A stretch of 64,000 nt of DNA, from contig JAHBYA010000005.1 of assembly GCA_019636195.1 (NCBI GenBank), forward strand, positions 174 to 64,173. Direction: 5' to 3'. The position numbers and the translations under genes are program-made. Shown piece by piece: positions 968 through 59,796 of the stretch (the first letter of the stretch is position 1; every line of letters starts with the position of its first letter). Below the pieces are notes generated by a model, which was given only the letters and a program-made list of their open reading frames with translations, had not been told where the DNA came from and did no database searches. The stretch comes from Planctomycetota bacterium. Lineage in GTDB: Bacteria > Planctomycetota > UBA8742 > UBA2392.

Positions 968-1885
968 TCACGCCGGCCACAGCGCCAGCACGACAATCAG
1001 CAACGGCCCGGTCAGCATGAAGTTGTCCATGATGTCCATGACGCCGCCGAACGCCGGTACCAGTTGCCCGCTGTCCTTGATGCCCGCGGCGCGTTTAAAG
1101 CCGCTTTCCACAAGGTCGCCGGCCTGTGCCGCAATGCCGACAAACAACCCCAGCACCGCCCCGTACCACGGCTGAACGAGCAGCGGTTTCAACATGCCGC
1201 CCGTCGCCCAGTCGCCCCAGTACGCGATGCCCAAACCGCCGGCCGCACTGAAGATCAAGCCGAACACCGCACCTTCAATCGTTTTGCCGGCGCTGAGGTG
1301 CGGGATCAGCTTGTGGCGGCCAAACGCCTTGCCCATCAGGTACGCGCCCACGTCGCCCAAGCGGCTTGCCGCGAGCAGAAAGTACAGCAGCCATTCGCCG
1401 GTGTTGGGCACACGGCGGATCCACAAGATCAGCGCGATCGGGAAAATGAGATACAGAAACATGCCCAGGTTGTTCGTGATGCGCGGGGCAAGGTTGCTTA
1501 CGTCTTTGCTTGTGATGCCGATCAGCGGGTACAGCACAGCGACCAGCAGCGGGATCAGCAGCATGAAGTGCGCGGCTTCGCCGGGCAGGCGCACAATCGT
1601 GTCGGCCTGGCCGCCGGCCCACAGTTCGTCAAAGGCGCCAAAGCGGGGCGGCTCCGCGACCATCTGCACAAAGCAAAGCATGACGACGGCGGTAAACGCC
1701 AGCAGGCCCGCATCCAGAGGCAAGCCGCGAAAGCGGAACATGCGGGCAAGCTCATGGATGCCGCCCAGGGTCATGCCGATGCAAAGCGCGAAAAATCCCC
1801 ACGTAAAGCCGGCAAAGTGGTCCAGCGCCAGCACGCCGACCAGCGCAAAGAACATCGAAAAACCGAACAGGAAACGCTTACCCAT
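968..1885 (-). CDS. cdsA: Phosphatidate cytidylyltransferase
   Basis: 305-aa multi-pass membrane ORF. C-terminal signature: GKAFGRHKL..LSAGKTIEGAVFG...FKRAAGIKDSGQLVPAFGGVMDIMD. Confidence 0.9.
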   Translation of the reverse strand: MGKRFLFGFSMFFALVGVLALDHFAGFTWGFFALCIGMTLGGIHELARMFRFRGLPLDAGLLAFTAVVMLCFVQMVAEPPRFGAFDELWAGGQADTIVRLPGEAAHFMLLIPLLVAVLYPLIGITSKDVSNLAPRITNNLGMFLYLIFPIALILWIRRVPNTGEWLLYFLLAASRLGDVGAYLMGKAFGRHKLIPHLSAGKTIEGAVFGLIFSAAGGLGIAYWGDWATGGMLKPLLVQPWYGAVLGLFVGIAAQAGDLVESGFKRAAGIKDSGQLVPAFGGVMDIMDNFMLTGPLLIVVLALWPA

Positions 1886-1949: not shown

Positions 1950-3266
1950 CTAGAGCCGCCCGCCGGTGACGATGCTGCCGTACATGTTCAGCAGCGGTCC
2001 TTGCAGCTCATTGGGTTCGGCGTCGATTACATGGACCCCGGTGCTGTGAATCCGGCTGAGTATCGTCTGGCGCTCCTCCAGCAGCGTCAGCGCGGCGAGT
2101 TGCCGGTATGCGGCGTCGGTGTCGGGCACGTCGGCGGCCACGGTCGCGTGATAGACGGGGTCGCGCATGGCGGCCACGATCGCCACGTGACGGCGTGTAA
2201 TCTGCGCGATGTTGCGTTGCAACTCCCAGCCTTGTGCCTCGTTGTCGAAGTCAGTTGCCAGAATCACCAGCGCGCGCCTTGGCAGCGCGTGGTTCAGCGT
2301 CACAAAGGCCGGCGTAAACGCCGTTTCGCTGTGGCGCGGCTTTACGCTAAGCGAAGCGCGCACGATCTTTGCCAACTGGCCGCTGCCCGCGCGGGGCGGG
2401 ACTAAGCTCTGGACTTCGCCGTCAAAGATGATCATGCCGCACAGGTCGCCGCGCTGCAGCGCCGCCGCCGCCACGCGCGACATGGCTTCCAGGGCAAGAT
2501 CGACCTTGCGCGTGTTGCCGACGCGCGTGCCCATCAACCGGCCGGCGTCGCAGGCCAGCATGATGTGGCGGCGGCGCTCCGGCACATAGCGGCGCACAGC
2601 CAGCTGGCCGGTGCGGGCGTAGGCGCGCCAGTCCACCGATTGGGGCGGGTCGCCGGGAACGTAGGGCGCAAGTGACTCGAATTCGCCGCCGCGGCCCACG
2701 CCGCGCGCGCGTGTGATGCCGGCGTCAGCGTCGCGGGCGGCCTTGAGGATCAGTTCGTTGCTGCGCAGGATTTCGACGCCGGGGATGACGGCCACGTTCG
2801 CCGGCGCCGAGACGCGCACAATGCGGCGCATCAGGCGCAGCGGGCCGACAATGACGGCTGTCGCCCTGTCCAGGGTAAAGCTGCCGCGCTCGTTGGCCGA
2901 CAGCTCGAACTTCCATTCTGCGATTTCGTCGGGCGCAAGCGAGTAGGGCAAGGCCACGCGCTGGCCGTCGAAACTGGACGGCAGGATGTCAAACACCGCG
3001 CCGGAAAGGGAACGCAACCCATCATTCTGGAGACCCAGCGTCATAATGAACGGCGTGCTGATGCCGACATCCGACGGCAGGTGCCGCAGCAGCGTCAACT
3101 CAGGTTTGCGGGGCAGGAACAGCGCGTCAGCGCCGATCACCACCAGCAGGCCGACCATGCAGGTGGCCCAGGGCAGCACCAGCGAATCATCCATAAGCAC
3201 AAACACGCTCAGCGCGATCAGCGCCAGCGCCAGGATGATCGTGATGCGCGTGGGCGAGTACCCCAT
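1950..3266 (-). CDS. DUF58 (vWA-like) protein, MoxR partner
   Basis: 438 aa with two N-terminal TM helices. Contains the ...PPQSVDWRAYARTGQLAVRRY... motif characteristic of DUF58. It starts 2 nt after the MoxR stop. Confidence 0.85.
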   Translation of the reverse strand: MGYSPTRITIILALALIALSVFVLMDDSLVLPWATCMVGLLVVIGADALFLPRKPELTLLRHLPSDVGISTPFIMTLGLQNDGLRSLSGAVFDILPSSFDGQRVALPYSLAPDEIAEWKFELSANERGSFTLDRATAVIVGPLRLMRRIVRVSAPANVAVIPGVEILRSNELILKAARDADAGITRARGVGRGGEFESLAPYVPGDPPQSVDWRAYARTGQLAVRRYVPERRRHIMLACDAGRLMGTRVGNTRKVDLALEAMSRVAAAALQRGDLCGMIIFDGEVQSLVPPRAGSGQLAKIVRASLSVKPRHSETAFTPAFVTLNHALPRRALVILATDFDNEAQGWELQRNIAQITRRHVAIVAAMRDPVYHATVAADVPDTDAAYRQLAALTLLEERQTILSRIHSTGVHVIDAEPNELQGPLLNMYGSIVTGGRL

Positions 3267-7784: not shown

Positions 7785-10724
7785 CTAGCGCCGCACCGGC
7801 AGCCATTGCGCGGCCCGCTCTTTCAGCATGACAATTCGGCCGGGCGACTGGCCGTCCGCTGCCCGTTCAAGCTGCTCGGCGGTGGCTTGGGGATCGGGGC
7901 CGCCGTACAGCGCAATGCAGTAGGTGGCAAACTCGCGCCAGCCCGCTTCCCCGAACCAGCGTGAATCATGGTCGCCGCGCCAGTTGCGCAGTGCGCGCTC
8001 CAGGTTGTCCTGCCGACGCTTCTGGTCGCGGGTGTCGATCGGGCTGCCGATAAAGAACTCGCACAGCGCCGCGGGCAGCGCGTGGCTGGCCTCGCCTGCG
8101 TTCAACTCATCGGCCAGCTCGCGCCACAGGCGCAGGCGGGCATCGGCTTCGCCGGCCAGCTCCGGTCGTTCCATGGCGGCCAGCGCAAGCTGCACCTTCA
8201 GCCAGACCGGGTCGGCGCCGGCGCGGGCCGCGGCGCCCAGCCAGACCTCGGCTTTGCGGGCGGGGCCAAAGTCGCTGCCGGATGCCGCCATGCGCGCCAC
8301 CCACGCGGCCTCGATCAGCCGGGGCGCCAGCAGGCTGTTGTCCACGAGGTAGCCATCGACCGCGGCGGCGGCCCAGTCGGCGGTTGTTTGCAGGTCGCCG
8401 TACTCGGGGGCCGGGGCCTCAAGCTTAAGTGCCAGCAACCGGCCCATGGCCGGAGCATAGACGGCGCCAAAGCGCAGATAGTTGGCGCCCTCAATGCGCG
8501 AGAGCGCGCTGAAGGCCTCGGCTCGCAGCGCTTCCGCCCGGTCGGTGTCGGTGGCGGCAACCTGCAGCCGCAGGCGTGCGCCGTGGTACAGCGCCTCGCA
8601 CACCAGGCCGGGGCTGCCCAGAGCGCTGCTGCTGACGAAGTCATAGTAGCGTACCGCGCGGCTGGGATGTTCTTCGGCCAGCAGTTGGGCGCGGCGCATG
8701 GCGTCGTGCAGCAGCCACGAGTTCATCTCCGGCGACATGCCGGTGCTGAGCTGCGCCACGCGCAACTGCGCAATCGCGGCGTCATCGTTGTCGCGGACTG
8801 TTTCCATGTCTGACGCGACCAGGAAAATCCGGGCGCGCAGACCGGGATCATTGACCAGAGCCTTGGCCTGGGTGCAGTCGGAAAGTGCGTCTTCAAGGCG
8901 CCCCAGCCGCTGGCGGCAGGTCGCGCGCAGCAGCAACAGGGCCGCCCGCTCGTTGCGGACAGCGGGCTCGGCGTCGGCGGGCAGCGGCAACGCCAGCCGC
9001 GCCGCCAGCCGAAGCTCGGCGTCGCTGTATTGGCCCACCGAGTACAGCAGCATCTCGGTGCTTTGGGCTGTGTCGCGGTGGGTGACGGTCACGGTGCGCA
9101 AACTGAGTTCCGAGACTTCGCCGCGCACGGCAAAGCGCCGGCCCGCGGCGGCAAACGCCGGGTAGATGTCGTCAAACTCGAACGCCGCCATCGGGCCCGG
9201 GGCCGCAACCTCCGAAAGGGAAAAAGCGATCGATTGTCCGCGCCGCGTGATCACCGCCCGGTACCAAACCCCCGGCTCAAGCGCAGGCCGCAGCCCGCCA
9301 CGGTAGGCGCCCAGCACCGGCACGCCCAGCCGCCGCAACTCAATACGGTCGCGCGCGCCGGCCCCCAGCGCGATGGTGTAGGCGGTGTCCACCTCGCCGG
9401 GTTGGTCGGGCATACCCACCAGCAGCTCAAGCGGCCCCTTTGCGTCGCGGATTCGGAGTTCAAGGTCCAGCGTGAAGTCGCCCCAGCAGGCGCGCTCTTT
9501 GGGTGAAATGAACAGCGGGTCGGCGCCGGTGCGAGCAAGCACGATTTCGCCGCCCTGGCCGGTGGTGACGACACCGCCGTGCTGTGTCCAGGTGCCGTCT
9601 TTGCCGAACATCGGCTCAATGTCTTCGCGCTGGCGCGGGTCGTTGCCCAGGATGCGGCGCTCGTCAATGAAGCCGCCTTCGCTGTTGCTCATGAACGCCG
9701 GGTTCAGGCCCGTGTAAACCATGCCGCCCGCCAGCCCCAGCGCGACGAGAATCACGGCCGCCACCGGCACATAGCGCCGGGTGCGAAGCCAGATCCGCGC
9801 CAGCTTGCCCCTTGAGCGCGCGACCACCCACTCGCCGTGAAGGTAGCGCTCAAGGTCGTCGGCCAGCGCGTCGGCGGACTCGTAGCGGCGCGCCGGGTCC
9901 TGGGCCATGGCCATCTCAACGATGGCGCGCAGGTCGGGCGGCACATCTTCAAGGGCGGTGCGCGGCCACTTGGGCCCCTGGCTTTCCGCTACCCGCAACA
10001 TCAGTTCGTAGGTGCTGTCGCCCTCAACGGGGCGCTTGCCCGTTAACAGCGTGTAAAGCGTGGCACCCATTGCGTATATGTCGGTCTTGACCCCCACGCG
10101 GTTGCGCTCGCCCCGGGCCTGCTCGGGCGCCATGTAGGCGGGCGTGCCCATACTGATACCGGTCTGGGTAAGCTGTCCGCTGTGCGTAAGGTCCTGTGCC
10201 AAGCCGAAGTCAGTCAAAATCGGGGTGCCGTCGCGTCGGACGATGATGTTGCCGGGCTTGATGTCACGGTGAACGATTCCCTGTTTGTGTGCCTGGCCGA
10301 CGGCGCGGGCGATGGCCTCAATGAGTGTCGCGGCTTCGTCGGGGTCCAAGGGCCCGCGGCGCGCCGCGTCGTCGGCGTCCTGGCCCTCAATGAAGTCCAT
10401 GGTGAAGAAAGGGTGGCCTTCAATCTCGCCGGCCTCAAAGACGCGGACGATGTTGGGGTGGCTGATGCGCGCGACATTTTCAATCTCGCGGCGAAAGCGC
10501 GTAAGCGCTTCTGCGTCAGTTGCATAAGAGGAAGGAAGGAGCTTAAGGGCGACCGGGCGCTGAAGGTCAGTCTGCCACGCGCGATAGACGCGGGCCTGTC
10601 CGCCGCGCGGCAACTCGCGCTCTATAATGAAGCGACCGAGTTCCTGGCCGATGCGCGGCAGGGGTGCGATGTGCAGGCCTGAGTCATTCTGTTCCACGCG
10701 CGCTCCGGGCGTAATGGTAAGCAC
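7785..10724 (-). CDS. Ser/Thr protein kinase with TM helix and large extracytoplasmic beta-sandwich plus helical-repeat region
   Basis: Hanks-type kinase motifs are present: VALKLL, HRDIKPGNIIV, DFGLA and GTPAYMAPE. The TM helix is at ...YVPVAAVILVALGLAGGMVY. Total length is 979 aa. Confidence 0.9.
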   Translation of the reverse strand: MLTITPGARVEQNDSGLHIAPLPRIGQELGRFIIERELPRGGQARVYRAWQTDLQRPVALKLLPSSYATDAEALTRFRREIENVARISHPNIVRVFEAGEIEGHPFFTMDFIEGQDADDAARRGPLDPDEAATLIEAIARAVGQAHKQGIVHRDIKPGNIIVRRDGTPILTDFGLAQDLTHSGQLTQTGISMGTPAYMAPEQARGERNRVGVKTDIYAMGATLYTLLTGKRPVEGDSTYELMLRVAESQGPKWPRTALEDVPPDLRAIVEMAMAQDPARRYESADALADDLERYLHGEWVVARSRGKLARIWLRTRRYVPVAAVILVALGLAGGMVYTGLNPAFMSNSEGGFIDERRILGNDPRQREDIEPMFGKDGTWTQHGGVVTTGQGGEIVLARTGADPLFISPKERACWGDFTLDLELRIRDAKGPLELLVGMPDQPGEVDTAYTIALGAGARDRIELRRLGVPVLGAYRGGLRPALEPGVWYRAVITRRGQSIAFSLSEVAAPGPMAAFEFDDIYPAFAAAGRRFAVRGEVSELSLRTVTVTHRDTAQSTEMLLYSVGQYSDAELRLAARLALPLPADAEPAVRNERAALLLLRATCRQRLGRLEDALSDCTQAKALVNDPGLRARIFLVASDMETVRDNDDAAIAQLRVAQLSTGMSPEMNSWLLHDAMRRAQLLAEEHPSRAVRYYDFVSSSALGSPGLVCEALYHGARLRLQVAATDTDRAEALRAEAFSALSRIEGANYLRFGAVYAPAMGRLLALKLEAPAPEYGDLQTTADWAAAAVDGYLVDNSLLAPRLIEAAWVARMAASGSDFGPARKAEVWLGAAARAGADPVWLKVQLALAAMERPELAGEADARLRLWRELADELNAGEASHALPAALCEFFIGSPIDTRDQKRRQDNLERALRNWRGDHDSRWFGEAGWREFATYCIALYGGPDPQATAEQLERAADGQSPGRIVMLKERAAQWLPVRR

Positions 10725-17904: not shown

Positions 17905-18117
17905 ATGCCCGTATTCGATATCCAGTGCCCGATCATCGACGAACCCGCCCGCATTGACTTCGGCGGCGAAGAAGTGCGCGGCGCGCTGCGCTTTCGCGGG
18001 TTCACTTGTGAACACGAAGCCGCCTGCCGGCAGGCCGGCATCAAGTGCGCGTTGTTTGACGCCGACGGCCTTGAGCCCTTTGACGCGGCGGACGCCTTCG
18101 ACTTTTTCAACGGTTAG
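17905..18117 (+). CDS. Small acidic hypothetical protein (70 aa)
   Basis: The ATG lies 2 nt after the priA stop. Third-position GC bias is consistent with coding. No recognisable motif was seen. Confidence 0.4.
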   Translation: MPVFDIQCPIIDEPARIDFGGEEVRGALRFRGFTCEHEAACRQAGIKCALFDADGLEPFDAADAFDFFNG

Positions 18118-19901
18118 TGGTTCGTCGCGAACTCGGTGCTGCACACCAGCGCGTAAAACAGGTCTTCGTATGCCGCGGACTCGGGCTCGTTGCCCGCTGT
18201 TACCGACTTGATGTGCTCCTTGGCGCGCTTGAGTTCTTCAGCTGTCGGTTTGCGCGACAGCACACTCAAGTACAGCGCCTCCACGCGCGAGTCCACAGTG
18301 CTGAAATCGCGCATCACCGCGTACACCGTGCTGCCGTTGGTGCTGCCGCTCAGGCGCCGCGTCACGTCGCCGTTCAGCATCAGCAGCGCCTGGTCAATCG
18401 ACTGCGTGAACCCCTCGCTCAACGCCATTTCGTCGTCCTGCGCCAGCGCGGCATACTGCGCCGCCAGCGCACGCCGCAGCCGCCACTTCGGCCGCATACC
18501 GTCGATGCGGCCCATGTAGCGCTTCAGCAGGTCGTCGTCGAACTTCGTGTTGTTTTCAGGCTCCTGCCCGTTCTTCCTCTGCATCTCCAGAAACGCCGCG
18601 AACTGGCTTAATCGGTGGTATGCGCTGGGGTGCTGGCGCGCAAAACTCTTCAGCAGCGCGTCGCCATCCTCAAGGCTGAACAACGTCCCGAACAACTGCT
18701 CGGGCGTCAATTGCCGCACCGGCGCCGCCGCGAAGTGCCACAACTCGGACTTCTCCGGCTTGCCCGCGCTCGAAAGCTGATACGTCCGCGAGTTCAGTAT
18801 TCCGCGGTACAGCCGCTTCACGTCCCAGCCGTGCTTCACGAAGTCCGCAGCCAGCGCGTCCAGCAGCTTCGGGTGGCTGGCCTCGTTCAGGCTGTTGAAG
18901 TCATCCACCGGGTTCAAAAGCCCGATCCCGAACAGGAAGCTCCAGTGGCGGTTGACCACATACCGCGCCGTGGTCGGGTGTTTCGCGCTTACCAGCCAGT
19001 TGGCGAGCGCGCGGCGCCACACCTTGGGGTCGCGCGTTTTCAGCGCCTTGTCGCCCGGCAACTGCGGCGTGTTGTAGCGCATCAGGTCGTCAAGCCGCCC
19101 GCGATACTCGGCGGGAATGTCTTCTTTCAGCGTCTTGAGGTACGCAGCCAGCTGGTCCGCGGGCGGCACGTCCTTGGTCTCAATGCGCGGGTCAATCGGC
19201 TGGACGTAGAAGTCCGCCTGTATCTCGATCGGCGCGAAGAAGGCCGCCACGCCCGTGAACGCAGCCTGCGTCCACGCCGGGTCGTACGGATGGTCATGGC
19301 ACTCGGCGCACTGGATCTGCACGCCCGAAAAGTGCTTGCTGGTCACGCCCGCCGCGTCGGCTGTGCGAACCGGAAAGCCCGCCAGCCCGTAGTACGCCGC
19401 CGCCGGGTGTTCGCTGATGCGGCCCTCGGCGGTGATCATCGCCAGCGCGATTGCGTCAAAGCCTGCGCCCGCGTTGAAGCGCTCGGCCAGCCAGCCGGCC
19501 AGCACGTCGTTGGCAGAGTGCGCGAGCTCGCCCAGTTCGTCGTTGCCGCGCTCGCGGAACACGGGCATCCAGCGGTCGGCCAGGTGCTCACCGAAGCGCG
19601 GGTCAGCCAGCAGCCTGTCGATCAGGGCCGCGCGCTTGCCCGGCGCGTCGTCACCGAGAAAGGCCAGCGTTTCGGCGCGAGTCGGGGGCTCGCCGACGAC
19701 GTCGAGATACACGCGCCGCACGAACTCGCTGTCGCTGCCGGTTGGCGCGGGCGTAAGGCCATCGCGCTTGTGGACCGCGGCAACTTCGCGGTCAATCAGC
19801 GCCGAAACGCCCTCCGGCGCCTGCCCCCGCGCGGGCCAGCCAAGCCAGCCGGCCGCCGAAAGCACAGCCAGCGCCGCAAACAATGCGCACACCCGGTTCA
19901 T
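18114..19901 (-). CDS. DUF1549/DUF1553 domain protein (planctomycete-type)
   Basis: Has a signal peptide, the IQCAECHDHPYDPW motif typical of DUF1549, and a long C-terminal DUF1553-like region. Total length is 595 aa. Confidence 0.8.
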   Translation of the reverse strand: MNRVCALFAALAVLSAAGWLGWPARGQAPEGVSALIDREVAAVHKRDGLTPAPTGSDSEFVRRVYLDVVGEPPTRAETLAFLGDDAPGKRAALIDRLLADPRFGEHLADRWMPVFRERGNDELGELAHSANDVLAGWLAERFNAGAGFDAIALAMITAEGRISEHPAAAYYGLAGFPVRTADAAGVTSKHFSGVQIQCAECHDHPYDPAWTQAAFTGVAAFFAPIEIQADFYVQPIDPRIETKDVPPADQLAAYLKTLKEDIPAEYRGRLDDLMRYNTPQLPGDKALKTRDPKVWRRALANWLVSAKHPTTARYVVNRHWSFLFGIGLLNPVDDFNSLNEASHPKLLDALAADFVKHGWDVKRLYRGILNSRTYQLSSAGKPEKSELWHFAAAPVRQLTPEQLFGTLFSLEDGDALLKSFARQHPSAYHRLSQFAAFLEMQRKNGQEPENNTKFDDDLLKRYMGRIDGMRPKWRLRRALAAQYAALAQDDEMALSEGFTQSIDQALLMLNGDVTRRLSGSTNGSTVYAVMRDFSTVDSRVEALYLSVLSRKPTAEELKRAKEHIKSVTAGNEPESAAYEDLFYALVCSTEFATNH

Positions 19902-19952
19902 GGTTCACCAGTGTACATGATTGCATGAAGCCGTTGCGCGATTTCAGGGGCG

Positions 19953-39621: not shown

Positions 39622-41061
39622 CTAATCTTCAGGCGCGGGTTCCGGCTCAGGTTCTGGTTCCGGCTTCGGCTCGGCGCGGCCTTGCTCGGTCCAGACAATG
39701 TCCGCCGCGTGGCCTTGGCCGCCGGCGGCTCTATCGCTGCCTGTGCAGGTCAGCTTGAAGCCCGCTTCCGTGCGCTCGTAACTGAAGTCGCTGTCCCACG
39801 GGTCTTTGGGGATCTCACCTGAGGGCATGCGATCGGCAACGTCAGCCAGTTTTTCGGGGTAGCTGCCCTTGTCCTGCTTGAACGCGGAAAGCTTCTCGGC
39901 CAGGTCGCGCATCTGTTCGGCGGCGACCTCGGCCTTGGCTTCGTGCTCTTTCTGGTCGGTCCTTTCCTTGGGGCGCACGATCACCGCGCCGCCGCGCCCG
40001 CGCCGCTCCTGCGGGTAGCTGCCAGGCTCTGGAAAGATCACGTCCGCGTCTTCGCGAATGCCGCCGGCCAGCGCGTCTTTGCCCAGGCCGATGACCGCGA
40101 AGTCATCGTCGCCCATGCGCAGGTAAATGTACTCGCGGCCCCAGTTGTCGGTGGGCAGCACGTTGCGCAGGGCGTTCTGCTGCTTGCCGTCGGGCATTGG
40201 CACCGGGCGCGTCAGGTCGGCAAGCTCGTTGGGCAGCCTGCCCGCGAGCTTGCGCCATGCCTCAATTTCTTCGGCCAAGCTCTGGGCCTGCCAGTCGGTG
40301 TTGGGTCGCCAGTCGCCCCAGCGGTCGGTCTGGCGCGTCTTGCGGCGCACGTCGCGCTCGCTGACCACAAAGTCGGCGTTGCGGCCGGTGCCGTCCTCGG
40401 CACCTTCTTCGCCGCGGCAGATGATGGCGACGTTGTCGGCCGGCAGCACGCGCAGCTCAAAGGGGTTGCCCCACGGGTCGTTGAAGCAGGCGTTTACGCG
40501 CTTGTCTTCGGGCGTGTCACCCTTGCGCATGGCGTCGGCAAGTGTTCCGGGCCACTTCTGGTTTTCGCGCCGGAAGTTCAGGGCTTGCTCGGCGCATACG
40601 ACCATGCGGGCGCGGGCCAGTGTCAGGCGCGCTTCGTGGCGCTGTTCGTCGCGCCGGCGCTCAAGCTCGGCTTTTTGCTCGGGCTTCAGCTCAACCAACT
40701 CGCCGTTGCGCGTGAACGTGATGTCCGCCGCGGCGCCCTCGCCGCCGGCCTTGCCGTCTGACCCCAAGCTGACCAGCCGGTACCCGGCGTCGCTGTCCTG
40801 CTTGTACTGAAATGCGTTACCCCATGCGTCTTTGGGCACTTCCTTGCGCAGGCCGGCCTCAACCAGCGCCTGCAACTTTTCGGGGTAGGCGTTCTCGTGC
40901 GTTTCAGCCCATGCCCGCAGGTCCTGCATCAGGCTGCGCATGGTTTCGCGGGTTTCGCGCATGCGGGTGCGGTCGGCACGCGCGATGTCGTCGTCCTGCG
41001 CCAAAGCTGTCACAGCCAGGCACAGCAGCAGTACCGCGGTAACCAGAGTGCGCGCACGCAT
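39622..41061 (-). CDS. Exported protein with four tandem GspG (type II secretion pseudopilin) core domains
   Basis: The start is taken at MRARTLVTAVLLLCLAVTALAQ (Sec-type signal). The four modules are KDAWGNAFQYK..YRLVSLGSDGKAGGEGAAADITF, NDPWGNPFELR..RGEEGAEDGTGRNADFVV, TDNWGREYIYL..IGLGKDALAGGIREDADVIF and KDPWDSDFSYE..CTGSDRAAGGQGHAADIVW. The tail is (PE)n. Confidence 0.75.
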   Translation of the reverse strand: MRARTLVTAVLLLCLAVTALAQDDDIARADRTRMRETRETMRSLMQDLRAWAETHENAYPEKLQALVEAGLRKEVPKDAWGNAFQYKQDSDAGYRLVSLGSDGKAGGEGAAADITFTRNGELVELKPEQKAELERRRDEQRHEARLTLARARMVVCAEQALNFRRENQKWPGTLADAMRKGDTPEDKRVNACFNDPWGNPFELRVLPADNVAIICRGEEGAEDGTGRNADFVVSERDVRRKTRQTDRWGDWRPNTDWQAQSLAEEIEAWRKLAGRLPNELADLTRPVPMPDGKQQNALRNVLPTDNWGREYIYLRMGDDDFAVIGLGKDALAGGIREDADVIFPEPGSYPQERRGRGGAVIVRPKERTDQKEHEAKAEVAAEQMRDLAEKLSAFKQDKGSYPEKLADVADRMPSGEIPKDPWDSDFSYERTEAGFKLTCTGSDRAAGGQGHAADIVWTEQGRAEPKPEPEPEPEPAPED

Positions 41062-41161
41062 GGGAAACCCCGAACCGTTCATGGTACGCAGACCGCTGGC
41101 AGCGGCAAGCCGCGCGCGCCCCCTTGACGTGCAAACCCGCTTTAATACGGTTTGCAAGCCT

Positions 41162-43303: not shown

Positions 43304-43391
43304 CTCCGTGGGCCTGGTTTGAGCATAGTCATTTGAAAGCGCTGTTTGTCACGCGAAAGTCAGGGCGCGGCAGTTTTTTCATCCATAGAAA

Positions 43392-43417
43392 CGGGGCCCG
43401 AGTGCTCTCGGGCCCCG
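43392..43417 (-). terminator. Rho-independent terminator for the 43438..44460 gene
   Basis: CGGGGCCCGAG, loop, CTCGGGCCCCG (11-bp perfect stem). On the minus strand it is followed by TTTCTATGGATGAAAAAA. Confidence 0.75.
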
Positions 43418-43437: not shown

Positions 43438-44460
43438 TTACTTGCGCCGGCGGCGGACAGCCGCAAGGGCCATCAGCGCCAGCATGGCCGCCAAGCCCGC
43501 GCCGCCCGCGACGGTGCAGCCACCGCTGCCCGCGTTGGACTTTTGTGAGCCGGGGATGATGCCGTTGTCGTTGACGTGAACAATCACGTCGTCAGTGTCC
43601 ATGGCGTTGGCTGGGTCAGTGACAGTCAAGCGGAACTTGAGCGTGTCGTAGGTGGCGGGCGACGTGAAGCTGGGGGTGGCCGTGGTCTGGCCGTTCAGGG
43701 TCACGTTGCCGCCGGAGATCTGCACCCAGTAGTAGGTCAGGCTGCCGTTTTCCGGGTCGCGGCTGCCGCCGCCGTTCAGGGTGACGACGGTGTTGTAGGT
43801 CGCGCCCTGGTCAGCGCCCGCGTTTGCGATCGGGGCCTGGTTGGGGGGCGGGTTGCCGCCGCCTCCACCTCCACCGCCGCCTCCGCCGCCACCACCGCCA
43901 CCACCGCCACCGCCAGCCGGATACTGGTTCTTCCAGTTCTGGACCATGGTATTGGTGATCTGGCTGCTGGGGCCCTTGTGGATCAGCTTGCCGGTGCGGT
44001 CAAACACGAAGGCTGTCCCGTAGGAAAGGGAGCCGCTGCCAAAGTAGTAGGCCGGCACCTGGGTGGTAGCAGCATAGGGGTGTTGCATGCCCCATGACTG
44101 GCCGGTGCTGCCGATCGAGGCCTGCGTGCAGCCGTTCCAACCGATCTGGCAGACGGCGATGATCTGGAAATCAGACCCGGCGTGAGTGTTGTGAAGTGAA
44201 TTCATGTGCGGAACTCCGCTCTGGCAGATGCTTCAGCCAGGGGCCCACAACTCCAGCATTGTGATGTAGCCGGGCGCGGTGAAGTAGTTGTTCAGCTGGG
44301 TGAAACCGCTGGGGATTGGCCCCCAGCTCTGGCTGAACGTGATGTTGGCGGCCTGGCTGCCAATGGCCTGTGCCGACACGGCGGTGCTGAACAAGGTCAG
44401 CGCTGCGACAATCGCCAGACGCAGGACCAGCTTGCCGCCTGCCTGTAAGTTCCTCGACAT
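43438..44460 (-). CDS. Candidate selenoprotein: exported redoxin/TlpA-like domain (U-S-I-C), poly-Gly linker, Ig/PKD-like domain and Cys-containing C-terminal sorting tag
   Basis: ORFs 44233..44517 and 43438..44205 are in the same frame and separated only by TGA 44235..44233. The read-through product is ..ITMLELWAPG-U-SICQSGVPHMNSL.., with the TGA at the CxxC first-Cys position. SD GGAGGGGG lies 5 nt before ATG 44460. The signal peptide ends ..STAVSAQA. Confidence 0.65.
44206..44221 (-). promoter_or_regulatory. Candidate bacterial SECIS hairpin downstream of TGA 44235..44233
   Basis: The mRNA reads UGA, 11 nt, G, A, GCGG, AGUU, CCGC, A, C. The stem is GCGG/CCGC with an outer G-C pair and an A.A mismatch. 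The apical loop AGUU contains GU. Confidence 0.4.
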
Positions 44461-44573
44461 TTGAACCCCCTCCGGACCGATTTGCGAATCTGTGATGTGC
44501 CCACTGTCTGCGGGCATTAGATGCCAACGATTGTTAGATAGAAAGGTTTAAGTGTTTAGTGAATATTCATATG

Positions 44574-44684: not shown

Positions 44685-45665
44685 GTGGCCAGAGTGCTCT
44701 TGTTTCTCGTCTTGGCGTGCGCGCCCCTGTGCGCACAGTTGCAGCTTGTCGGGCAGGACGCCCCCGACTTTCATGCCCGCACGTGCGTCAACCCCGTTGA
44801 TGCCGACACCATGGCCCAGTGCAAGGGTGGTGTTGTGCTGCTGAAATACTGGGGCCCCAAGTGAGGGCCTTGCGTGAAGGCGTTGCCTTCAAACCAGGCC
44901 ATGTGGGAGGCACACAAAGATCGGGGACTGCATATGTTCCTGATCGACTGCCAGGGCACGTCCCTTGAAGACAGCCAGAAGTACGCGGCCCAGCGCGGGC
45001 TGACCATGCCGATCGCGATTCACCTTGAGTGCGACTTCATCAAGTGGGACAACGCCGAGCGCCTGAGCCTGCCCTACAGCTATGTCGTCGGCCCCGACGG
45101 CAAGGTGGTCTGGCAAGGTCGCGGCGACGGCTACGCCGCCAAAGTTCGCGAGCAGCTTGCCCGCCTGAAGTACCCCAGCCTGCGCCGCATGGACATCGCC
45201 CCTGAACTTGTCACAGCCGCCACGCAGTTTGAAGCCGGCGAGTACGCGGCCGCCCGCGCCGGCGCCGAGAAGGTCAAGGCGGCTGCACCGAATGAAACCG
45301 CCGTCGCCGACGCCGAGCACGTGATTGCCGCGGTGGATGACCATGTGCTGAAACTGCGCCTGCGTATTGATGAGCTTAAGGCCGACCGCAAGTACCACGA
45401 GGCGATCCCGCTGCTCGAGAAGCTGGCTGGCAAGCAGTACAAGGGCCTGGAGTACGGCGACGCCGCCGGTAACGAGTTGAAAGAGCTGCGCAAGGACAAG
45501 CAGGTTCAGAAAGAGCTGAAGGCTTGGGAGCAATGGAAGTTGACCCAGGAGGCGAACAGGAAGCTCAAGACTGAAGAAGAGCGCAAGGCCGCCACCCAGA
45601 AGTTCATCAAGAAGCACGAAGGCACAGCCGCCGCCGACGAAGCGCAGGCCGGCCTTGACGGTTAG
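44685..45665 (+). CDS. Candidate selenoprotein: exported TlpA/thioredoxin-like oxidoreductase (U-G-P-C) with helical C-terminal domain
   Basis: GTG 44685 has SD GGAGGGG 5 nt upstream. The signal peptide is VARVLLFLVLACAPLCAQ. The sequence continues LVGQDAPDF...VVLLKYWGPK-TGA(44862-44864)-GPCVKALPSNQ.., in frame with the listed ORF 44874..45665. Confidence 0.7.
44866..44900 (+). promoter_or_regulatory. Candidate bacterial SECIS hairpin downstream of TGA 44862-44864
   Basis: The lower stem is GGCCU (44866-70) with AGGCC (44896-900), then a 5x5 internal loop. The upper stem is GAAGGC (44876-81) with GCCUUC (44885-90), and the apical loop is GUU. The upper stem begins 11 nt after the UGA. Confidence 0.5.
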
Positions 45666-57582: not shown

Positions 57583-59796
57583 ATGCATGAACGTGCACAG
57601 GCGTTGTTGGTAATCGCGCTGCTGGTCTTGCTGGCCGTGACGGTCGCGCTTGACCCGCGGGTGCCCGGCTATCGTTCGCGCTACGACGCGCAGGCCACGC
57701 CGGCCGAAGTCATGCGCTGGCAGCGCGACCTGCTGGACTGGCGCCGCGCGCCGACATGGTCGAAGCTGCCTGCGCCGGACTTCACAGCGAGCTACGTCTT
57801 CGGCAAGTATCGCTACCGGCTGGACGTGCAGATCAGCGCCAACGAGCTGCACTACGTAAGCTGGGGCACAGACGACCAGCAGGGCGGCGGGGCTTGGTAC
57901 GCGGTGGGCCACGGCCACCGTCAGGCGGATGGCGAGTGGTTCAGTATCTGGAGTTGCCTTGACCTTTCGCGCGAGGTCAGCAACGGCGGCGGCGCATGGT
58001 TTGCCTTTTCACCAGACCGCAGGCGCATTCATGTGCGCTACTACCACGACACGCTGCCGTTCGGCGCCGACCCGATGGAGCTGGGCGAAGCGGTGATGGT
58101 GAATCTGGACGCAGGCGCCGAGCTTACCGACGAAACGACCTACGCCGACCCGCAGTGGCAGACCCGCACACCGGAAGGCCGTGTGCGCACCTACATCGAG
58201 ACGTTGCAGGTGCGCGCCGAGCTGTGGGGGCGCGTGGTGGATGAACAGGGCCGCGGCATTGCGGGCGCCGCAGTCAAGCAGCGCGCGGCTGGCCGCATTG
58301 AGGCGGTCACGGACGCGAGGGGCTTCTTTCGGCTTGAGTTGGAAGAGCTTGAGGCACTGACGTTGCTGGCCGCCGGCAAGCCCGGCTACTACAACGGGAT
58401 CGTGACGCTGGAGCAGGCGACGGCGCTGCGCGCGATCGGCCCCGGGCGCGACAAGTCCAAGGTTGCGCTGGCGACGATCACGCTGCGCCGCTACGACACC
58501 CATGACTATCGCGAGTACGCGTGGGTCGCGCCCGACCCTGACCCGGCGCCGGAGAACCACCTGAGCTGCGGCAACTGCCACCGCCGCGAGCACGAGCACT
58601 GGTCGCGCTCGCGCCATGCAAGCATGGCGGTCAATGCATGGACGCGCGCGGCCTTTGAGCGCGACGCCCGCCCGCACGCGCTGGCCGACGGCCGCACGCA
58701 GGACGACTGCACGCCCTGTCACAGCCCAAGCCTGGCCTCGACCCTTGCGCGCTTTGACCTGCAGGGCGCCACGCTGCTGGACGCCGCGGGCGTGCACTTG
58801 CGCGGCAACCACTGCGATTTGTGCCACAAGATTGAGGCTGTGCCCGACCCCGACAAGCCGGGCATGAACGGGTCGGCGCGGCTGCTGCGGCCGGACCCCA
58901 ACGACGCGCGCGTACCGGGGGGCATCAAGCGTGTGTTCGGGCCGTTGCCGGACGTGAGCTTTCTGTACATGGGGGCGGCGTACAACCCGCTGTTCAGCAC
59001 GGGTGCGCTGTGTGCGGCCTGCCACCAGGACGGCAACGCCCAGGGCACTTACCGCGAGTGGCAACGCAGCAAGTACGCCACGCCGGCGCACCTGAAGCAC
59101 TGCCAGGACTGTCACATGCCGGCCTACACGCGCGGCGAGCCCAAGTCGTTCCCCGGGCCGGACGGTCGCCCGATCATGGTCGCCAGCGGCGATCTCACCG
59201 GCGAAGAGGCGGCGGCCAACGGCGTGGCGATCGCGCGCTACAGCACGCGCTTTCGGCCCTTGAATGAGGCGCACAAGCACAGCTTTGTCGGCACAGAAGA
59301 CGCCGACTTTCTGCGCGCGGGCGTGACCATGCACGTTGAAAAGGTGCCGATTGTCGATGGCGTGCGCCTGCGTGTGACACTGACCAACGTCGGCGCCGGC
59401 CATGCGATCCCGACCGGCCACGGCTTGAAACGCTATGTGCTGTCCGTGCATGGCCGCGCGGGCGGGCAGCCGCTGGCGTTTGCCGGCGGCCTGCCCGAGT
59501 CTGAACGCGCGGGCGCCGCAGCCAGCGCCACAACCGGCGCGTTGATCGGGCGGCAGTTCAGCAGCGACTGGAGCGTGCCGTACTGGCGCGGCCAGCCGAC
59601 GCAGGACACCCGCCTGCTGCCCGACGAGCCGCAGGTATTCACGTTTGACCTGCCGGGGGCTGAGAGCGTTGAGGTGAAATTGACCATGCGCCGCGGTTCA
59701 CCGGCGCTGTTGCAGCAGCACGGCCTGGACCCCGAACGCACCGCAATTGCAGGCGCGCAGAACGACCTGGTCGTGCACACATGGCGCTCGCGCTAG
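57583..59796 (+). CDS. Pentaheme c-type cytochrome-like protein with N-terminal beta-sandwich region
   Basis: Five CxxCH motifs are present: CGNCH, CTPCH, CDLCH, CAACH and CQDCH. It has an N-terminal signal anchor. Length is 737 aa. Confidence 0.85.
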   Translation: MHERAQALLVIALLVLLAVTVALDPRVPGYRSRYDAQATPAEVMRWQRDLLDWRRAPTWSKLPAPDFTASYVFGKYRYRLDVQISANELHYVSWGTDDQQGGGAWYAVGHGHRQADGEWFSIWSCLDLSREVSNGGGAWFAFSPDRRRIHVRYYHDTLPFGADPMELGEAVMVNLDAGAELTDETTYADPQWQTRTPEGRVRTYIETLQVRAELWGRVVDEQGRGIAGAAVKQRAAGRIEAVTDARGFFRLELEELEALTLLAAGKPGYYNGIVTLEQATALRAIGPGRDKSKVALATITLRRYDTHDYREYAWVAPDPDPAPENHLSCGNCHRREHEHWSRSRHASMAVNAWTRAAFERDARPHALADGRTQDDCTPCHSPSLASTLARFDLQGATLLDAAGVHLRGNHCDLCHKIEAVPDPDKPGMNGSARLLRPDPNDARVPGGIKRVFGPLPDVSFLYMGAAYNPLFSTGALCAACHQDGNAQGTYREWQRSKYATPAHLKHCQDCHMPAYTRGEPKSFPGPDGRPIMVASGDLTGEEAAANGVAIARYSTRFRPLNEAHKHSFVGTEDADFLRAGVTMHVEKVPIVDGVRLRVTLTNVGAGHAIPTGHGLKRYVLSVHGRAGGQPLAFAGGLPESERAGAAASATTGALIGRQFSSDWSVPYWRGQPTQDTRLLPDEPQVFTFDLPGAESVEVKLTMRRGSPALLQQHGLDPERTAIAGAQNDLVVHTWRSR

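What the first reader, a model, noticed from the sequence alone, without database searches (positions are those of the whole stretch)
43438..44460. Second in-frame TGA in a redoxin CxxC position (U-S-I-C) on the opposite strand: candidate modular selenoprotein
- Reading frame: the minus-strand ORFs 44233..44517 and 43438..44205 share one reading frame. They are separated only by TGA 44235..44233, and 44232 down to 44205 is 9 sense codons.
- Product: from ATG 44460 (SD GGAGGGGG, 5-nt spacer) the product starts with signal peptide MSRNLQAGGKLVLRLAIVAALTLFSTAVSAQA.
- Motif: it continues ..ANITFSQSWG..PGYITMLELWAPG-U-SICQSGVPHMNSLHNTHAGSDFQIIAV...GTAFVFDRTGKLIHKG. This is a redoxin/TlpA pattern with the TGA at the first Cys of CxxC.
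- Hairpin: 11-13 nt after the UGA there is a small hairpin (GCGG, AGUU, CCGC, plus an outer G-C pair). Its apical loop again contains GU, starting 18 nt after the UGA, the same distance as in the neighbouring gene.
- Strength of evidence: two independent TGAs, each exactly at the catalytic Cys column of adjacent Trx-fold genes, is hard to explain by random nonsense mutation.
- Downstream modules: the redoxin domain is fused through a poly-Gly linker to an Ig/PKD-like domain and a C-terminal membrane sorting tag. That implies a surface-tethered oxidoreductase.
Basis: partly seen in the sequence, partly recalled or inferred. Interest (0 to 1): 0.85.

Follow-up and report, generated by a model that had tools for sequence, protein, structure and literature searches.

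The report
Exported selenocysteine thioredoxin-like protein gene
This is very probably one real gene for a secreted, surface-anchored thioredoxin-like enzyme of a planctomycete. Its catalytic cysteine is replaced by selenocysteine, encoded by an in-frame TGA, so public gene predictions always split it into two nameless pieces.

Summary
The minus-strand gene runs from ATG 44460 to TAA 43438 and has one in-frame TGA (44235..44233) in ...ELWAPG-U-SIC..., the first position of a CxxC redox motif.

I read the DNA of eight lineages: the window, Logan/JGI/ENA metagenome contigs, and three Planctomycetota MAGs at 55-90% protein identity.
- All keep TGA at this column, with the frame kept on both sides.
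- dN/dS is 0.06-0.37 on both sides, at near-saturated dS.
- The terminal stop varies between TAA and TGA.
- TGA is an ordinary stop for 13 of 33 confident window genes.

Searches of 5.8 and 15 billion proteins found only split halves, about 16 N-terminal clusters all ending at ...ELW[AG][PI][GN], and no cysteine form.

A family profile aligns over the whole domain to solved TlpA/DsbE/ResA/Etrx/DipZ structures (E 7e-6), with U on their first Cys.

A small hairpin with GU in its loop follows the UGA in every lineage. It sits in three different registers and is not statistically exceptional.

The signal peptide, PKD domain and MYXO-CTERM-like tag are confirmed.

Not shown: the Sec machinery (none in the 64 kb window), selenium incorporation, and the fold (AlphaFold failed).

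Verdict: an unannotated family within a well-known kind, Trx-fold UxxC selenoproteins. Moderate interest.

The parts
43438..44460 (-). Complete coding sequence (340 codons plus TAA) with one in-frame TGA. It encodes a signal peptide, a TlpA-like redoxin domain, a Gly linker, a PKD domain and a Cys-containing C-terminal sorting tag.
   Evidence: The same architecture is present in 8 lineages.
44466..44473 (-). Shine-Dalgarno GGAGGGGG, 5 nt before ATG 44460.
   Evidence: Read directly. GGAGG is kept before the start codon in the orthologues.
44365..44460 (-). Signal peptide, residues 1-32, ending ...SAQA before IGSQ.
   Evidence: Read directly. An equivalent h-region followed by AQA occurs in all N-terminal fragments. 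No predictor was run.
43915..44364 (-). Diverged thioredoxin-fold (TlpA/ResA/DsbE-like) domain, residues 33-182.
   Evidence: Family profile against PDB: 3gl3 E 6.7e-6, 4evm 2.3e-5, 2hyx 2e-4, 4nmu 2.7e-3, aligned over positions 29-144. NCBIfam TlpA E 7.5e-5 and ResA E 1.1e-3. Below the gathering score of every Pfam family.
44233..44235 (-). In-frame TGA, proposed selenocysteine codon (residue 76). It is the first position of U-S-I-C.
   Evidence: TGA at the same column in 8 lineages. It aligns to the first Cys of CxxC in solved homologues.
44224..44226 (-). TGC, the resolving Cys (residue 79) of the U-x-I-C motif.
   Evidence: Invariant in alignment A3.
44203..44223 (-). SECIS-like hairpin CAG AGC GGA GUU CCG CAC AUG. 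The core GCGG-AGUU-CCGC is at 44219..44208, with loop GU at +19/+20 after the UGA.
   Evidence: A hairpin is present at this place in all lineages, but in three registers. Energy against synonymous-codon randomisation gives p 0.004-0.25.
43855..43914 (-). Run of 20 Gly codons forming a flexible linker.
   Evidence: The linker varies in length and composition among orthologues, as Gly, Gly/Thr or Pro runs.
43573..43842 (-). PKD / Ig-like domain, residues 207-296.
   Evidence: PF22352 E 7.3e-16, PF18911 2.6e-6, PF17963 4.6e-5. Some orthologues have two copies.
43441..43527 (-). Tripartite C-terminal sorting tag: GGC-TVAGG, then a hydrophobic helix, then RRRRK.
   Evidence: TIGR03901 MYXO-CTERM 23.5 bits (cutoff 20). 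The tag is kept in all members and also ends an unrelated 891-aa protein in L015.
43387..43416 (-). GC-rich 10-bp hairpin GGGGCCCGAG-AGCA-CUCGGGCCCC followed by GUUUCU. It is a probable terminator.
   Evidence: Read directly. It does not meet the terminator scan's requirement of 5 T.
44685..45665 (+). Divergently transcribed neighbour: a second TlpA-like gene with an in-frame TGA (44862..44864) in YWGPK-U-GPC.
   Evidence: The TGA is kept in L001/L002. It is only 23% identical to this gene around the motif, so it is not a recent duplicate.

Best explanation
This is one gene for an exported selenoprotein.

Decoding (inferred): the ribosome reads UGA 44235..44233 as selenocysteine. It is presumably guided by SelB bound to the small hairpin that starts 11-13 nt downstream and presents a GU in its loop about 19 nt after the UGA.

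Product (from the sequence): a 340-residue precursor. It has a Sec-type signal peptide, a diverged TlpA/ResA-like thioredoxin-fold domain with the redox motif U-S-I-C, a poly-Gly linker, a PKD domain and a Cys-containing tripartite C-terminal tag of the MYXO-CTERM type.

Function (inferred):
- The selenolate at the N-terminal nucleophilic position attacks a substrate disulfide or another oxidised group.
- Cys79 then resolves the intermediate by forming a selenenylsulfide.
- The tag is cleaved and lipid-anchors the enzyme in the envelope or at the cell surface, with the PKD module acting as a stalk.

Shown here: gene continuity, conservation of the TGA, homology to TlpA-type proteins, and the domains.

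Not shown: Sec insertion itself, catalysis, the electron donor, and the final location.
For: - Conserved TGA: it sits at the same column in 8 lineages at 55-90% identity, drawn from independent assemblies.
- Selection on both sides: dN/dS is 0.06-0.32 upstream and 0.06-0.37 downstream, with dS 0.75-2.8.
- Stop codon pattern: the internal stop is always TGA, while the terminal stop varies between TAA and TGA.
- No code change: TGA terminates 13 of 33 confident window ORFs.
- No conserved restart: the downstream Met is Leu (TTG/CTG) in three clades.
- Homology: the U aligns with the first Cys of WC-x-x-C in solved TlpA/DsbE/Etrx/DipZ/ResA proteins.
- Only split products are known: 4 C-terminal fragments and about 16 N-terminal fragments ending at the same residue, with no Cys form.
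- A hairpin with GU in the loop is present after the UGA in all lineages.
- The neighbouring gene has the same layout and a stronger hairpin with a GUU loop 17 nt after its UGA.
- A further split CT-U gene lies in MAG locus L013.
- Some Planctomycetes have full Sec machinery (PMC4807772).
- TlpA-family and other Trx-fold UxxC selenoproteins are established kinds (PMC13188914).
Against: - No selA, selB, selD or tRNA-Sec is present in the 64 kb window or in the fetched loci. The rest of the genome could not be read.
- The hairpin is short: 4 bp of core stem in the window.
- Its energy is not exceptional against dinucleotide shuffles (z -0.2 to -0.6).
- It is only marginal against synonymous recoding (p 0.07-0.25 in most lineages).
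- Synonymous sites after the UGA are not significantly more conserved than elsewhere (p 0.33-0.5).
- The loop GU is the first two bases of a conserved Val codon, so its conservation is not independent evidence.
- No Rfam SECIS model matches.
- The redoxin domain is below the gathering score of every Pfam family.
- Two AlphaFold runs gave unusable models (pLDDT 35 and 40).
Confidence: 0.85

Rival explanations
1. Translation stops at the UGA, and the locus makes two products. One is a 75-residue secreted peptide. The other is a separate downstream protein started at ATG 44205.
For: This is how every public gene call treats the locus. Sec machinery was not demonstrated.
Against: - The nine codons between the TGA and the ATG are conserved as protein.
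- The Met is replaced by Leu (TTG or CTG) in the L005, L008, L013 and L015 clades, so there is no conserved restart.
- The downstream part would have a C-terminal sorting tag and a PKD domain but no signal peptide.
- The two parts together align as one thioredoxin fold to solved structures.
- The internal stop is never TAA or TAG in any lineage.
Confidence: 0.05
2. The UGA is read through, but not as selenocysteine. Near-cognate or suppressor decoding inserts Trp, Cys or Arg, or the lineage has reassigned UGA.
For: The hairpin is small and not statistically compelling. Sec machinery was not seen.
Against: - TGA is a normal stop in 13 of 33 window genes, and it is the terminal stop of this same gene in L013/L015, so there is no reassignment.
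- The position is exactly the nucleophilic Cys of CxxC in two unrelated neighbouring Trx-fold genes. That is the signature of Sec, not of leaky readthrough.
- If Cys were inserted, a TGC/TGT form would be expected in some lineage. None was found.
Confidence: 0.06
3. The gene is a pseudogene, or the TGA is a sequencing or assembly error.
For: There is a single in-frame stop in an otherwise intact ORF.
Against: - The same TGA occurs in independent assemblies from Logan, JGI, ENA and NCBI, across lineages with dS near saturation.
- There is strong purifying selection on both sides.
- No lineage has a frameshift or a second stop.
Confidence: 0.01

Closest known systems
[quoted passage not shown]
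   Same: An exported TlpA/ResA-like thioredoxin fold with Sec at the nucleophilic redox position. The W-A-x-x-U context is shared. The gene is truncated at the TGA in databases.
   Different: - The motif is U-x-I-C, with CxxC spacing, rather than U-G-C.
- NF041054 does not match this protein at E<=1.
- This family adds a Gly linker, PKD domain(s) and a Cys-containing C-terminal sorting tag.
- It has Gly where the fold's cis-Pro normally sits.
Prx-like thiol:disulfide oxidoreductase and thiol:disulfide interchange selenoproteins (UxxC), known from genome and metagenome selenoproteome surveys (PMC1794560, PMC2398784, PMC13188914)
   Same: The UxxC motif lies in a Trx-fold oxidoreductase. The bSECIS follows the UGA directly, inside the coding region.
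   Different: Those families meet PF00578 or PF13098 and have many Cys-containing orthologues. This one is below all Pfam thresholds, and no Cys orthologue was found.
Cys-containing extracytoplasmic reductases ResA, CcmG/DsbE, TlpA, Etrx1/2 and the DipZ C-terminal domain (PDB 4nmu, 3gl3, 1jfu, 4evm/4hqs, 2hyx)
   Same: These are the best sequence matches over the whole domain. 4evm even has WCSIC against WAPG-U-SIC. All are exported.
   Different: They have Cys rather than Sec and keep the cis-Pro ([MY]PT against [FY]GT here). They are single-domain or membrane-anchored at the N-terminus, and are supplied with electrons by CcdA/DsbD. No such partner is seen near this gene.
MYXO-CTERM proteins of Myxococcota, such as TraA, processed by myxosortase (PMC11980579; bioRxiv 10.1101/2023.06.07.544157)
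   Same: The tripartite tag has an invariant Cys, a hydrophobic helix and an Arg cluster. It scores above the TIGR03901 cutoff.
   Different: The host is Planctomycetota, not Myxococcota, and the preprint does not mention planctomycetes. The cognate CPBP protease was not looked for beyond the window. No oxidoreductase or selenoprotein passenger is described there.
The neighbouring gene 44685..45665, which is partly related to the NCBIfam NF041382 VPGUxxT thioredoxin-like (seleno)protein family
   Same: A TlpA-like domain with TGA at the first CxxC position, a signal peptide, and a hairpin with a GUU loop 17-18 nt after the UGA.
   Different: It is only 23% identical over 43 residues. It has a helical C-terminal half in place of PKD and tag. 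It is absent from most loci that carry this family.

Membership tests
Bacterial selenoprotein gene (UGA recoded as Sec) | An in-frame UGA is conserved at the same column among orthologues. | tested here: met
   8 of 8 lineages read have TGA. About 16 database N-terminal fragments end at the same residue.
Bacterial selenoprotein gene (UGA recoded as Sec) | Protein-coding conservation in the same frame on both sides of the UGA. | tested here: met
   dN/dS 0.06-0.32 upstream and 0.06-0.37 downstream, with dS 0.75-2.8.
Bacterial selenoprotein gene (UGA recoded as Sec) | The UGA aligns with a redox-active Cys in homologues. | tested here: met
   The first Cys of CxxC in 3gl3, 4evm, 4hqs and others aligns with the U. 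These are distant homologues only. No close Cys orthologue was found.
Bacterial selenoprotein gene (UGA recoded as Sec) | A bSECIS: a stem-loop just 3' of the UGA with a conserved G(U) in the apical loop, roughly 16-37 nt downstream. | tested here: inconclusive
   A hairpin with loop GU at +19/+20 is present in every lineage. It occurs in three registers, and its energy is not significant in most lineages. There is no Rfam match.
Bacterial selenoprotein gene (UGA recoded as Sec) | selA, selB, selD and tRNA-Sec in the same genome. | not testable with these tools
   None is present in the 64 kb window or in the fetched loci.
Bacterial selenoprotein gene (UGA recoded as Sec) | Selenium is actually incorporated at that residue. 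| not testable with these tools
   This needs 75Se labelling or mass spectrometry.
TlpA/ResA/DsbE-like thioredoxin-fold oxidoreductases (cd02966; Pfam Redoxin / AhpC-TSA) | A significant profile match over the whole domain. | tested here: inconclusive
   The family profile against PDB gives E 6.7e-6 over positions 29-129 and 2.3e-5 over 33-143. Pfam Redoxin and AhpC-TSA score only 12-15 bits against cutoffs of 26. No usable structure model was obtained.
TlpA/ResA/DsbE-like thioredoxin-fold oxidoreductases (cd02966; Pfam Redoxin / AhpC-TSA) | A W-x-x-x-C-x-x-C active site at the start of helix 1. | tested here: met
   LW[AG][PI][GN]-U-[SG]-I-C is invariant in layout and aligns to WCGPC / WCSIC.
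TlpA/ResA/DsbE-like thioredoxin-fold oxidoreductases (cd02966; Pfam Redoxin / AhpC-TSA) | A conserved cis-Pro loop facing the active site. | tested here: not met
   The aligned position is Gly (S[YF]GT) in all members, against MPT / YPT in the solved homologues.
Curated NCBIfam selenoprotein families (NF041382/3 VPGUxxT, NF041054 WAxxUGC and others) | A score above the model's cutoff. | tested here: not met
   No such model matches this protein at E<=1. Only the neighbouring gene shows partial hits.
MYXO-CTERM sorting domain (TIGR03901) | A model score above cutoff, with an invariant Cys, a hydrophobic helix and an Arg cluster at the extreme C-terminus. | tested here: met
   23.5 bits against a cutoff of 20. 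The tag GGC..hydrophobic..RRRR is kept in all members.
MYXO-CTERM sorting domain (TIGR03901) | A cognate CPBP-family myxosortase in the genome, with many tagged proteins. | not tested
   No PF02517 hit was found among the window ORFs scanned. One other tagged protein was seen, in L015.
PKD domain (PF22352 / PF18911) | A Pfam score above the gathering cutoff. | tested here: met
   58.4 bits against 27, and 27.8 bits against 27.

The most novel reading that the evidence does not exclude
This may be a Planctomycetota-restricted enzyme family that exists only in the selenocysteine form. It would be displayed on the cell surface through a myxosortase-type Cys tag, making it a surface-tethered bacterial selenoenzyme. 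It lacks the thioredoxin cis-Pro and would be out of reach of the usual CcdA/DsbD electron supply. That implies an unusual extracellular redox chemistry, such as peroxide, metal(loid) or environmental disulfide turnover, rather than classical periplasmic protein reduction.
Probability: 0.3. Interest if true: 0.6.

Novelty: new member of a known kind. Interest (0 to 1): 0.42.

Why it matters
- Annotation: every public gene call cuts this gene in two and labels both halves as hypothetical. Recognising it fixes that for a whole family in Planctomycetota. It also adds a family to the prokaryotic selenoproteome that no Pfam or NCBIfam model captures.
- Sec-only family: it is unusual that no cysteine-containing orthologue was found. 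This makes it a useful case for asking when Sec becomes irreplaceable.
- Exported selenoenzyme: the combination of a selenoenzyme with a PKD stalk and a Cys-containing C-terminal sorting tag suggests that selenium chemistry is exported to the envelope or cell surface.
- Trait marker: with the neighbouring TGA-containing gene, it marks the host as a likely Sec user, a trait little documented in this phylum.

Tried and rejected
- Structure prediction. Two runs were made: one on the single sequence with X at the Sec position, and one on a 20-row alignment of the window protein with the database half-fragments. They gave pLDDT 35 and 40. The models were unusable, so no fold search was run.
- Submitting the read-through protein with Cys, or a DNA reference spanning the TGA, to the exhaustive protein search. 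Only the post-TGA half could be searched.
- Rfam, at gathering thresholds on the window and at permissive thresholds around both TGAs. No SECIS family matched.
- Test for excess synonymous-site conservation after the UGA. Not significant: 4 of 9 sites against 14 of 46, p 0.33.
- Hairpin energy against dinucleotide shuffles (z -0.2 to -0.75 for window and L005, -1.3 for L001) and against synonymous-codon randomisation (p 0.07-0.25, and 0.004 only for L008). The hairpin therefore counts as consistent, not as proof.
- A single covarying SECIS structure across lineages. Rejected, because the stems use three different registers.
- Search for sel genes and tRNA-Sec in the window and loci, using ARAGORN, Rfam, motif regexes and Pfam on about 40 ORFs. 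None was found.
- Window-wide scan for further in-frame TGAs with coding signal on both sides. Only this gene and its neighbour show a redox-motif context.
- Recent duplication of the two adjacent redoxin genes. Rejected, since they share only 23% identity over 43 residues.
- Promoter and terminator consensus scan. No hits.
Full report
**Observation.** On the minus strand an ORF starts at ATG 44460. It is preceded by GGAGGGGG and a 5-nt spacer, and it ends at TAA 43440..43438. It is interrupted once, by TGA 44235..44233. The product reads:
- signal peptide MSRNLQAGGKLVLRLAIVAALTLFSTAVSAQA;
- then IGSQ...GYITMLELWAPG-[TGA]-SICQSGVPHMNSL...;
- then a run of 20 Gly, a PKD domain, and ...GGCTVAGGAGLAAMLALMALAAVRRRRK.

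**Is the TGA part of a gene? The comparative evidence.**
- A word-indexed search with the U-to-C redoxin domain found a single protein, P0001. It is 89% identical but begins only at the Met after the TGA.
- Its contigs (L001-L004) are syntenic with the window. They show the same in-frame TGA, with the upstream ORF conserved mostly through synonymous changes.
- The genome collection gave two Planctomycetota MAG loci (L005, L006; 59% identity). The match runs across the stop, and the stop is again TGA.
- Further lineages came from three sources: the exhaustive search (P0002 and P0004, giving L007-L009), the metagenome scan (L010, L011), and a profile search (L013-L018, including NCBI MAG GCA_019636215.1).
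- In all eight distinct lineages whose DNA I read, the codon is TGA. The motif is LW[AG][PI][GN]-U-[SG]-I-C.
- The profile search of 5.8 billion proteins returned only halves. There were 4 C-terminal fragments and about 16 different 70-76-residue N-terminal fragments, every one ending at ...ELW[AG][PI][GN].
- No full-length form, meaning a Cys form, was found there or among 1.84 billion cluster representatives.

**Selection.**
- Nei-Gojobori estimates give dN/dS of 0.06-0.32 for the 42-43 mature codons upstream of the TGA (18 codons where L007 is one of the pair) and 0.06-0.37 for the 100 codons downstream. Synonymous divergence is 0.75-2.8. Both parts are therefore translated in this frame in all lineages.
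- The internal stop is always TGA, whereas the terminal stop is TAA in some lineages and TGA in others.
- TGA is a normal terminator in this genome: 13 of 33 confident ORFs end in TGA. A changed genetic code is therefore excluded.
- The ATG that gene callers use to restart (44205) is TTG or CTG (Leu) in the L005, L008, L013 and L015 clades. This argues against an independent downstream gene.
- A pseudogene or an assembly error is excluded by the number of independent assemblies and the intact frames.

**What the domain is.**
- Pfam recognises the PKD domain (PF22352, E 7e-16). The redoxin part is seen only faintly (AhpC-TSA and Redoxin at 12-15 bits against a cutoff of 26).
- NCBIfam gives local TlpA (E 7.5e-5) and near full-length ResA (E 1.1e-3) matches. 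It also gives MYXO-CTERM above its cutoff (23.5 bits against 20).
- A profile of five family members was searched against all PDB sequences. It matches exported TlpA-type thioredoxin folds over essentially the whole domain:
  - 3gl3, DsbE-like, E 6.7e-6;
  - 4evm/4hqs, pneumococcal Etrx, E 2e-5;
  - 2hyx/5cyy, DipZ, E 2e-4;
  - 4nmu, ResA, E 2.7e-3;
  - 1jfu, TlpA, a weaker match at E 0.07, above the significance level.
- In these alignments the first Cys of WCGPC or WCSIC falls on the TGA, and the second falls on Cys79.
- One deviation stands out. The position of the near-universal cis-Pro ([MY]PT) is Gly (S[YF]GT) in every member.
- AlphaFold could not confirm the fold (pLDDT 35 and 40).

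**The RNA element.**
- In the window, GCGG-AGUU-CCGC (44219..44208) starts 13 nt after the UGA. It can be extended to a 21-nt interrupted hairpin (44223..44203).
- The UGA itself can pair with CUUCA about 35 nt downstream.
- Every lineage has a hairpin at this place with GU in the loop 19-20 nt after the UGA, but the registers differ:
  - GCGG/CCGC in the window clade;
  - (A)AGUGC(G)/(C)GCACU(U) in the L005 and L008 clades;
  - GCGGG/CCCGC in the L013 and L015 clades.
- The position and the loop GU fit what is known of bacterial SECIS elements. From my own knowledge, the E. coli fdhF minimal element is a stem-loop 11 nt after the UGA with a loop GU near +20.
- The statistics are weak:
  - z-scores against shuffles are -0.2 to -0.75 for the window and L005, and -1.3 for L001;
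  - against synonymous recoding, p is 0.07-0.25, and 0.004 for L008 only;
  - there is no significant excess of synonymous conservation;
  - the loop GU belongs to a conserved Val codon;
  - Rfam has no match.
- I therefore count the hairpin as compatible, not as proof.
- The neighbouring gene has a much stronger hairpin with a GUU loop 17 nt after its UGA.

**Context.**
- The window is planctomycete-like. It has a PSCyt2/PSD1 protein and many T2SS-G-like repeats, and the relatives are Planctomycetota MAGs.
- The gene sits among housekeeping genes: Rho, TauE, RluB-like, VWA, RuvC, ComEA-like and PEPCK.
- Synteny with RuvC and VWA is kept in L001 and L017.
- The divergently transcribed neighbour (44685..45665) is a second TlpA-like gene, with TGA in YWGPK-U-GPC. 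Its TGA is kept in L001/L002. It is only 23% identical around the motif, and it is absent from L017 and from the other loci. The two genes are therefore independent selenoprotein candidates.
- No sel gene or tRNA-Sec lies in the window or in the fetched loci. The rest of the genome was out of reach.
- Indirect support for the Sec trait comes from three points:
  - two such genes lie side by side here;
  - a third split gene, (...GHPFGCT-U-NNG), with a local GU-loop hairpin, lies in MAG locus L013;
  - complete Sec machinery has been published for several Planctomycetes (PMC4807772).

**Mechanism proposed.**
- Shown: one continuous, selected reading frame with a conserved UGA at the nucleophilic position of a TlpA-type CxxC; a signal peptide; a PKD domain; and a Cys-containing tripartite tag that is also found on another protein of a related genome.
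- Inferred, in order:
  - SelB-dependent insertion of Sec at the UGA;
  - export by the Sec pathway;
  - thiol/selenol-disulfide exchange through a Sec76-Cys79 selenenylsulfide;
  - processing of the tag by a myxosortase-like CPBP protease, with lipid anchoring at the envelope or surface, as shown for MYXO-CTERM in Myxococcus (PMC11980579);
  - PKD and the Gly linker acting as a stalk.
- The substrate and the electron donor are unknown.

**Comparison and novelty.**
- Trx-fold UxxC selenoproteins are established. They include TlpA-family ('UGC'), Prx-like, thiol:disulfide interchange, DsbG-like and VPGUxxT families, catalogued in PMC13188914. The kind is therefore known.
- This particular family is not captured by any Pfam or NCBIfam model.
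- It is seen only in Planctomycetota-type contigs.
- It has no detectable Cys orthologue.
- It lacks the cis-Pro.
- It carries a PKD plus sorting-tag architecture that the selenoprotein review does not mention.
- I rate it a new member of a known kind, of moderate interest.

Noticed in passing
L013:3854-5059 (minus strand): Another split gene in the Planctomycetes MAG GCA_019636215.1: 81 codons, then TGA, then 320 codons. It reads ...MFFAMNGHPFGCT-U-NNGVIARR..., has a signal peptide, and has a local hairpin CCAGAC-GGUCC-GUCUGG 16 nt after the UGA. No NCBIfam model matches. It is possibly a further unannotated selenoprotein family.
   Followed up: partly
window 44685..45665 (+), TGA 44862..44864: The neighbouring TlpA-like gene has TGA in YWGPK-U-GPC and a strong hairpin with a GUU loop. 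Its helical C-terminal half matches NF041382 (VPGUxxT thioredoxin-like selenoprotein, E 2e-18), although its own motif differs. The TGA is kept in L001/L002, and the gene is absent from the other loci.
   Followed up: partly
window 43441..43527 (-); L015 about 2705..2806 (-): A MYXO-CTERM-like tag (GGC, then a hydrophobic helix, then RRRR) occurs in a Planctomycetota genome. The same kind of tag ends an unrelated 891-aa protein next to the family member in L015/L016. It therefore looks like a general sorting signal outside Myxococcota.
   Followed up: partly
window about 44016..44005 (-), residues S-Y-G-T of the redoxin domain: The cis-Pro loop of the thioredoxin fold is replaced by Gly (S[YF]GT) in all family members. 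The consequence for catalysis is unknown.
   Followed up: no
window 44531..44551 (-): The 21-nt block TTAAACCTTTCTATCTAACAA lies in the divergent intergenic region. It is identical in the window and in L001/L002, while the flanks have diverged. It may be a shared promoter or operator for the two TGA-containing genes.
   Followed up: no
L013 about 9900..9925 and L015 about 1240..1265: The upstream regions of the L013 and L015 orthologues carry TGGCAC-N5-(G)TGCT / GCGCT, with sigma-54-like -24/-12 spacing, about 70 nt before the ATG. The window clade does not fit this spacing.
   Followed up: no
window 43855..43914 (-): A run of 20 consecutive Gly codons (GGN). The orthologues have Gly/Thr or poly-Pro linkers of different length here, so this is a rapidly changing linker that is probably prone to slippage.
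   Followed up: no
window 18114..19904 (-), 39622..41157 (-), 57583..59796 (+): Three planctomycete-typical features: a PSCyt2+PSD1 (DUF1549/DUF1553) protein, a 511-aa protein with three T2SS-G pseudopilin-like repeats, and a multihaem cytochrome-like protein.
   Followed up: no
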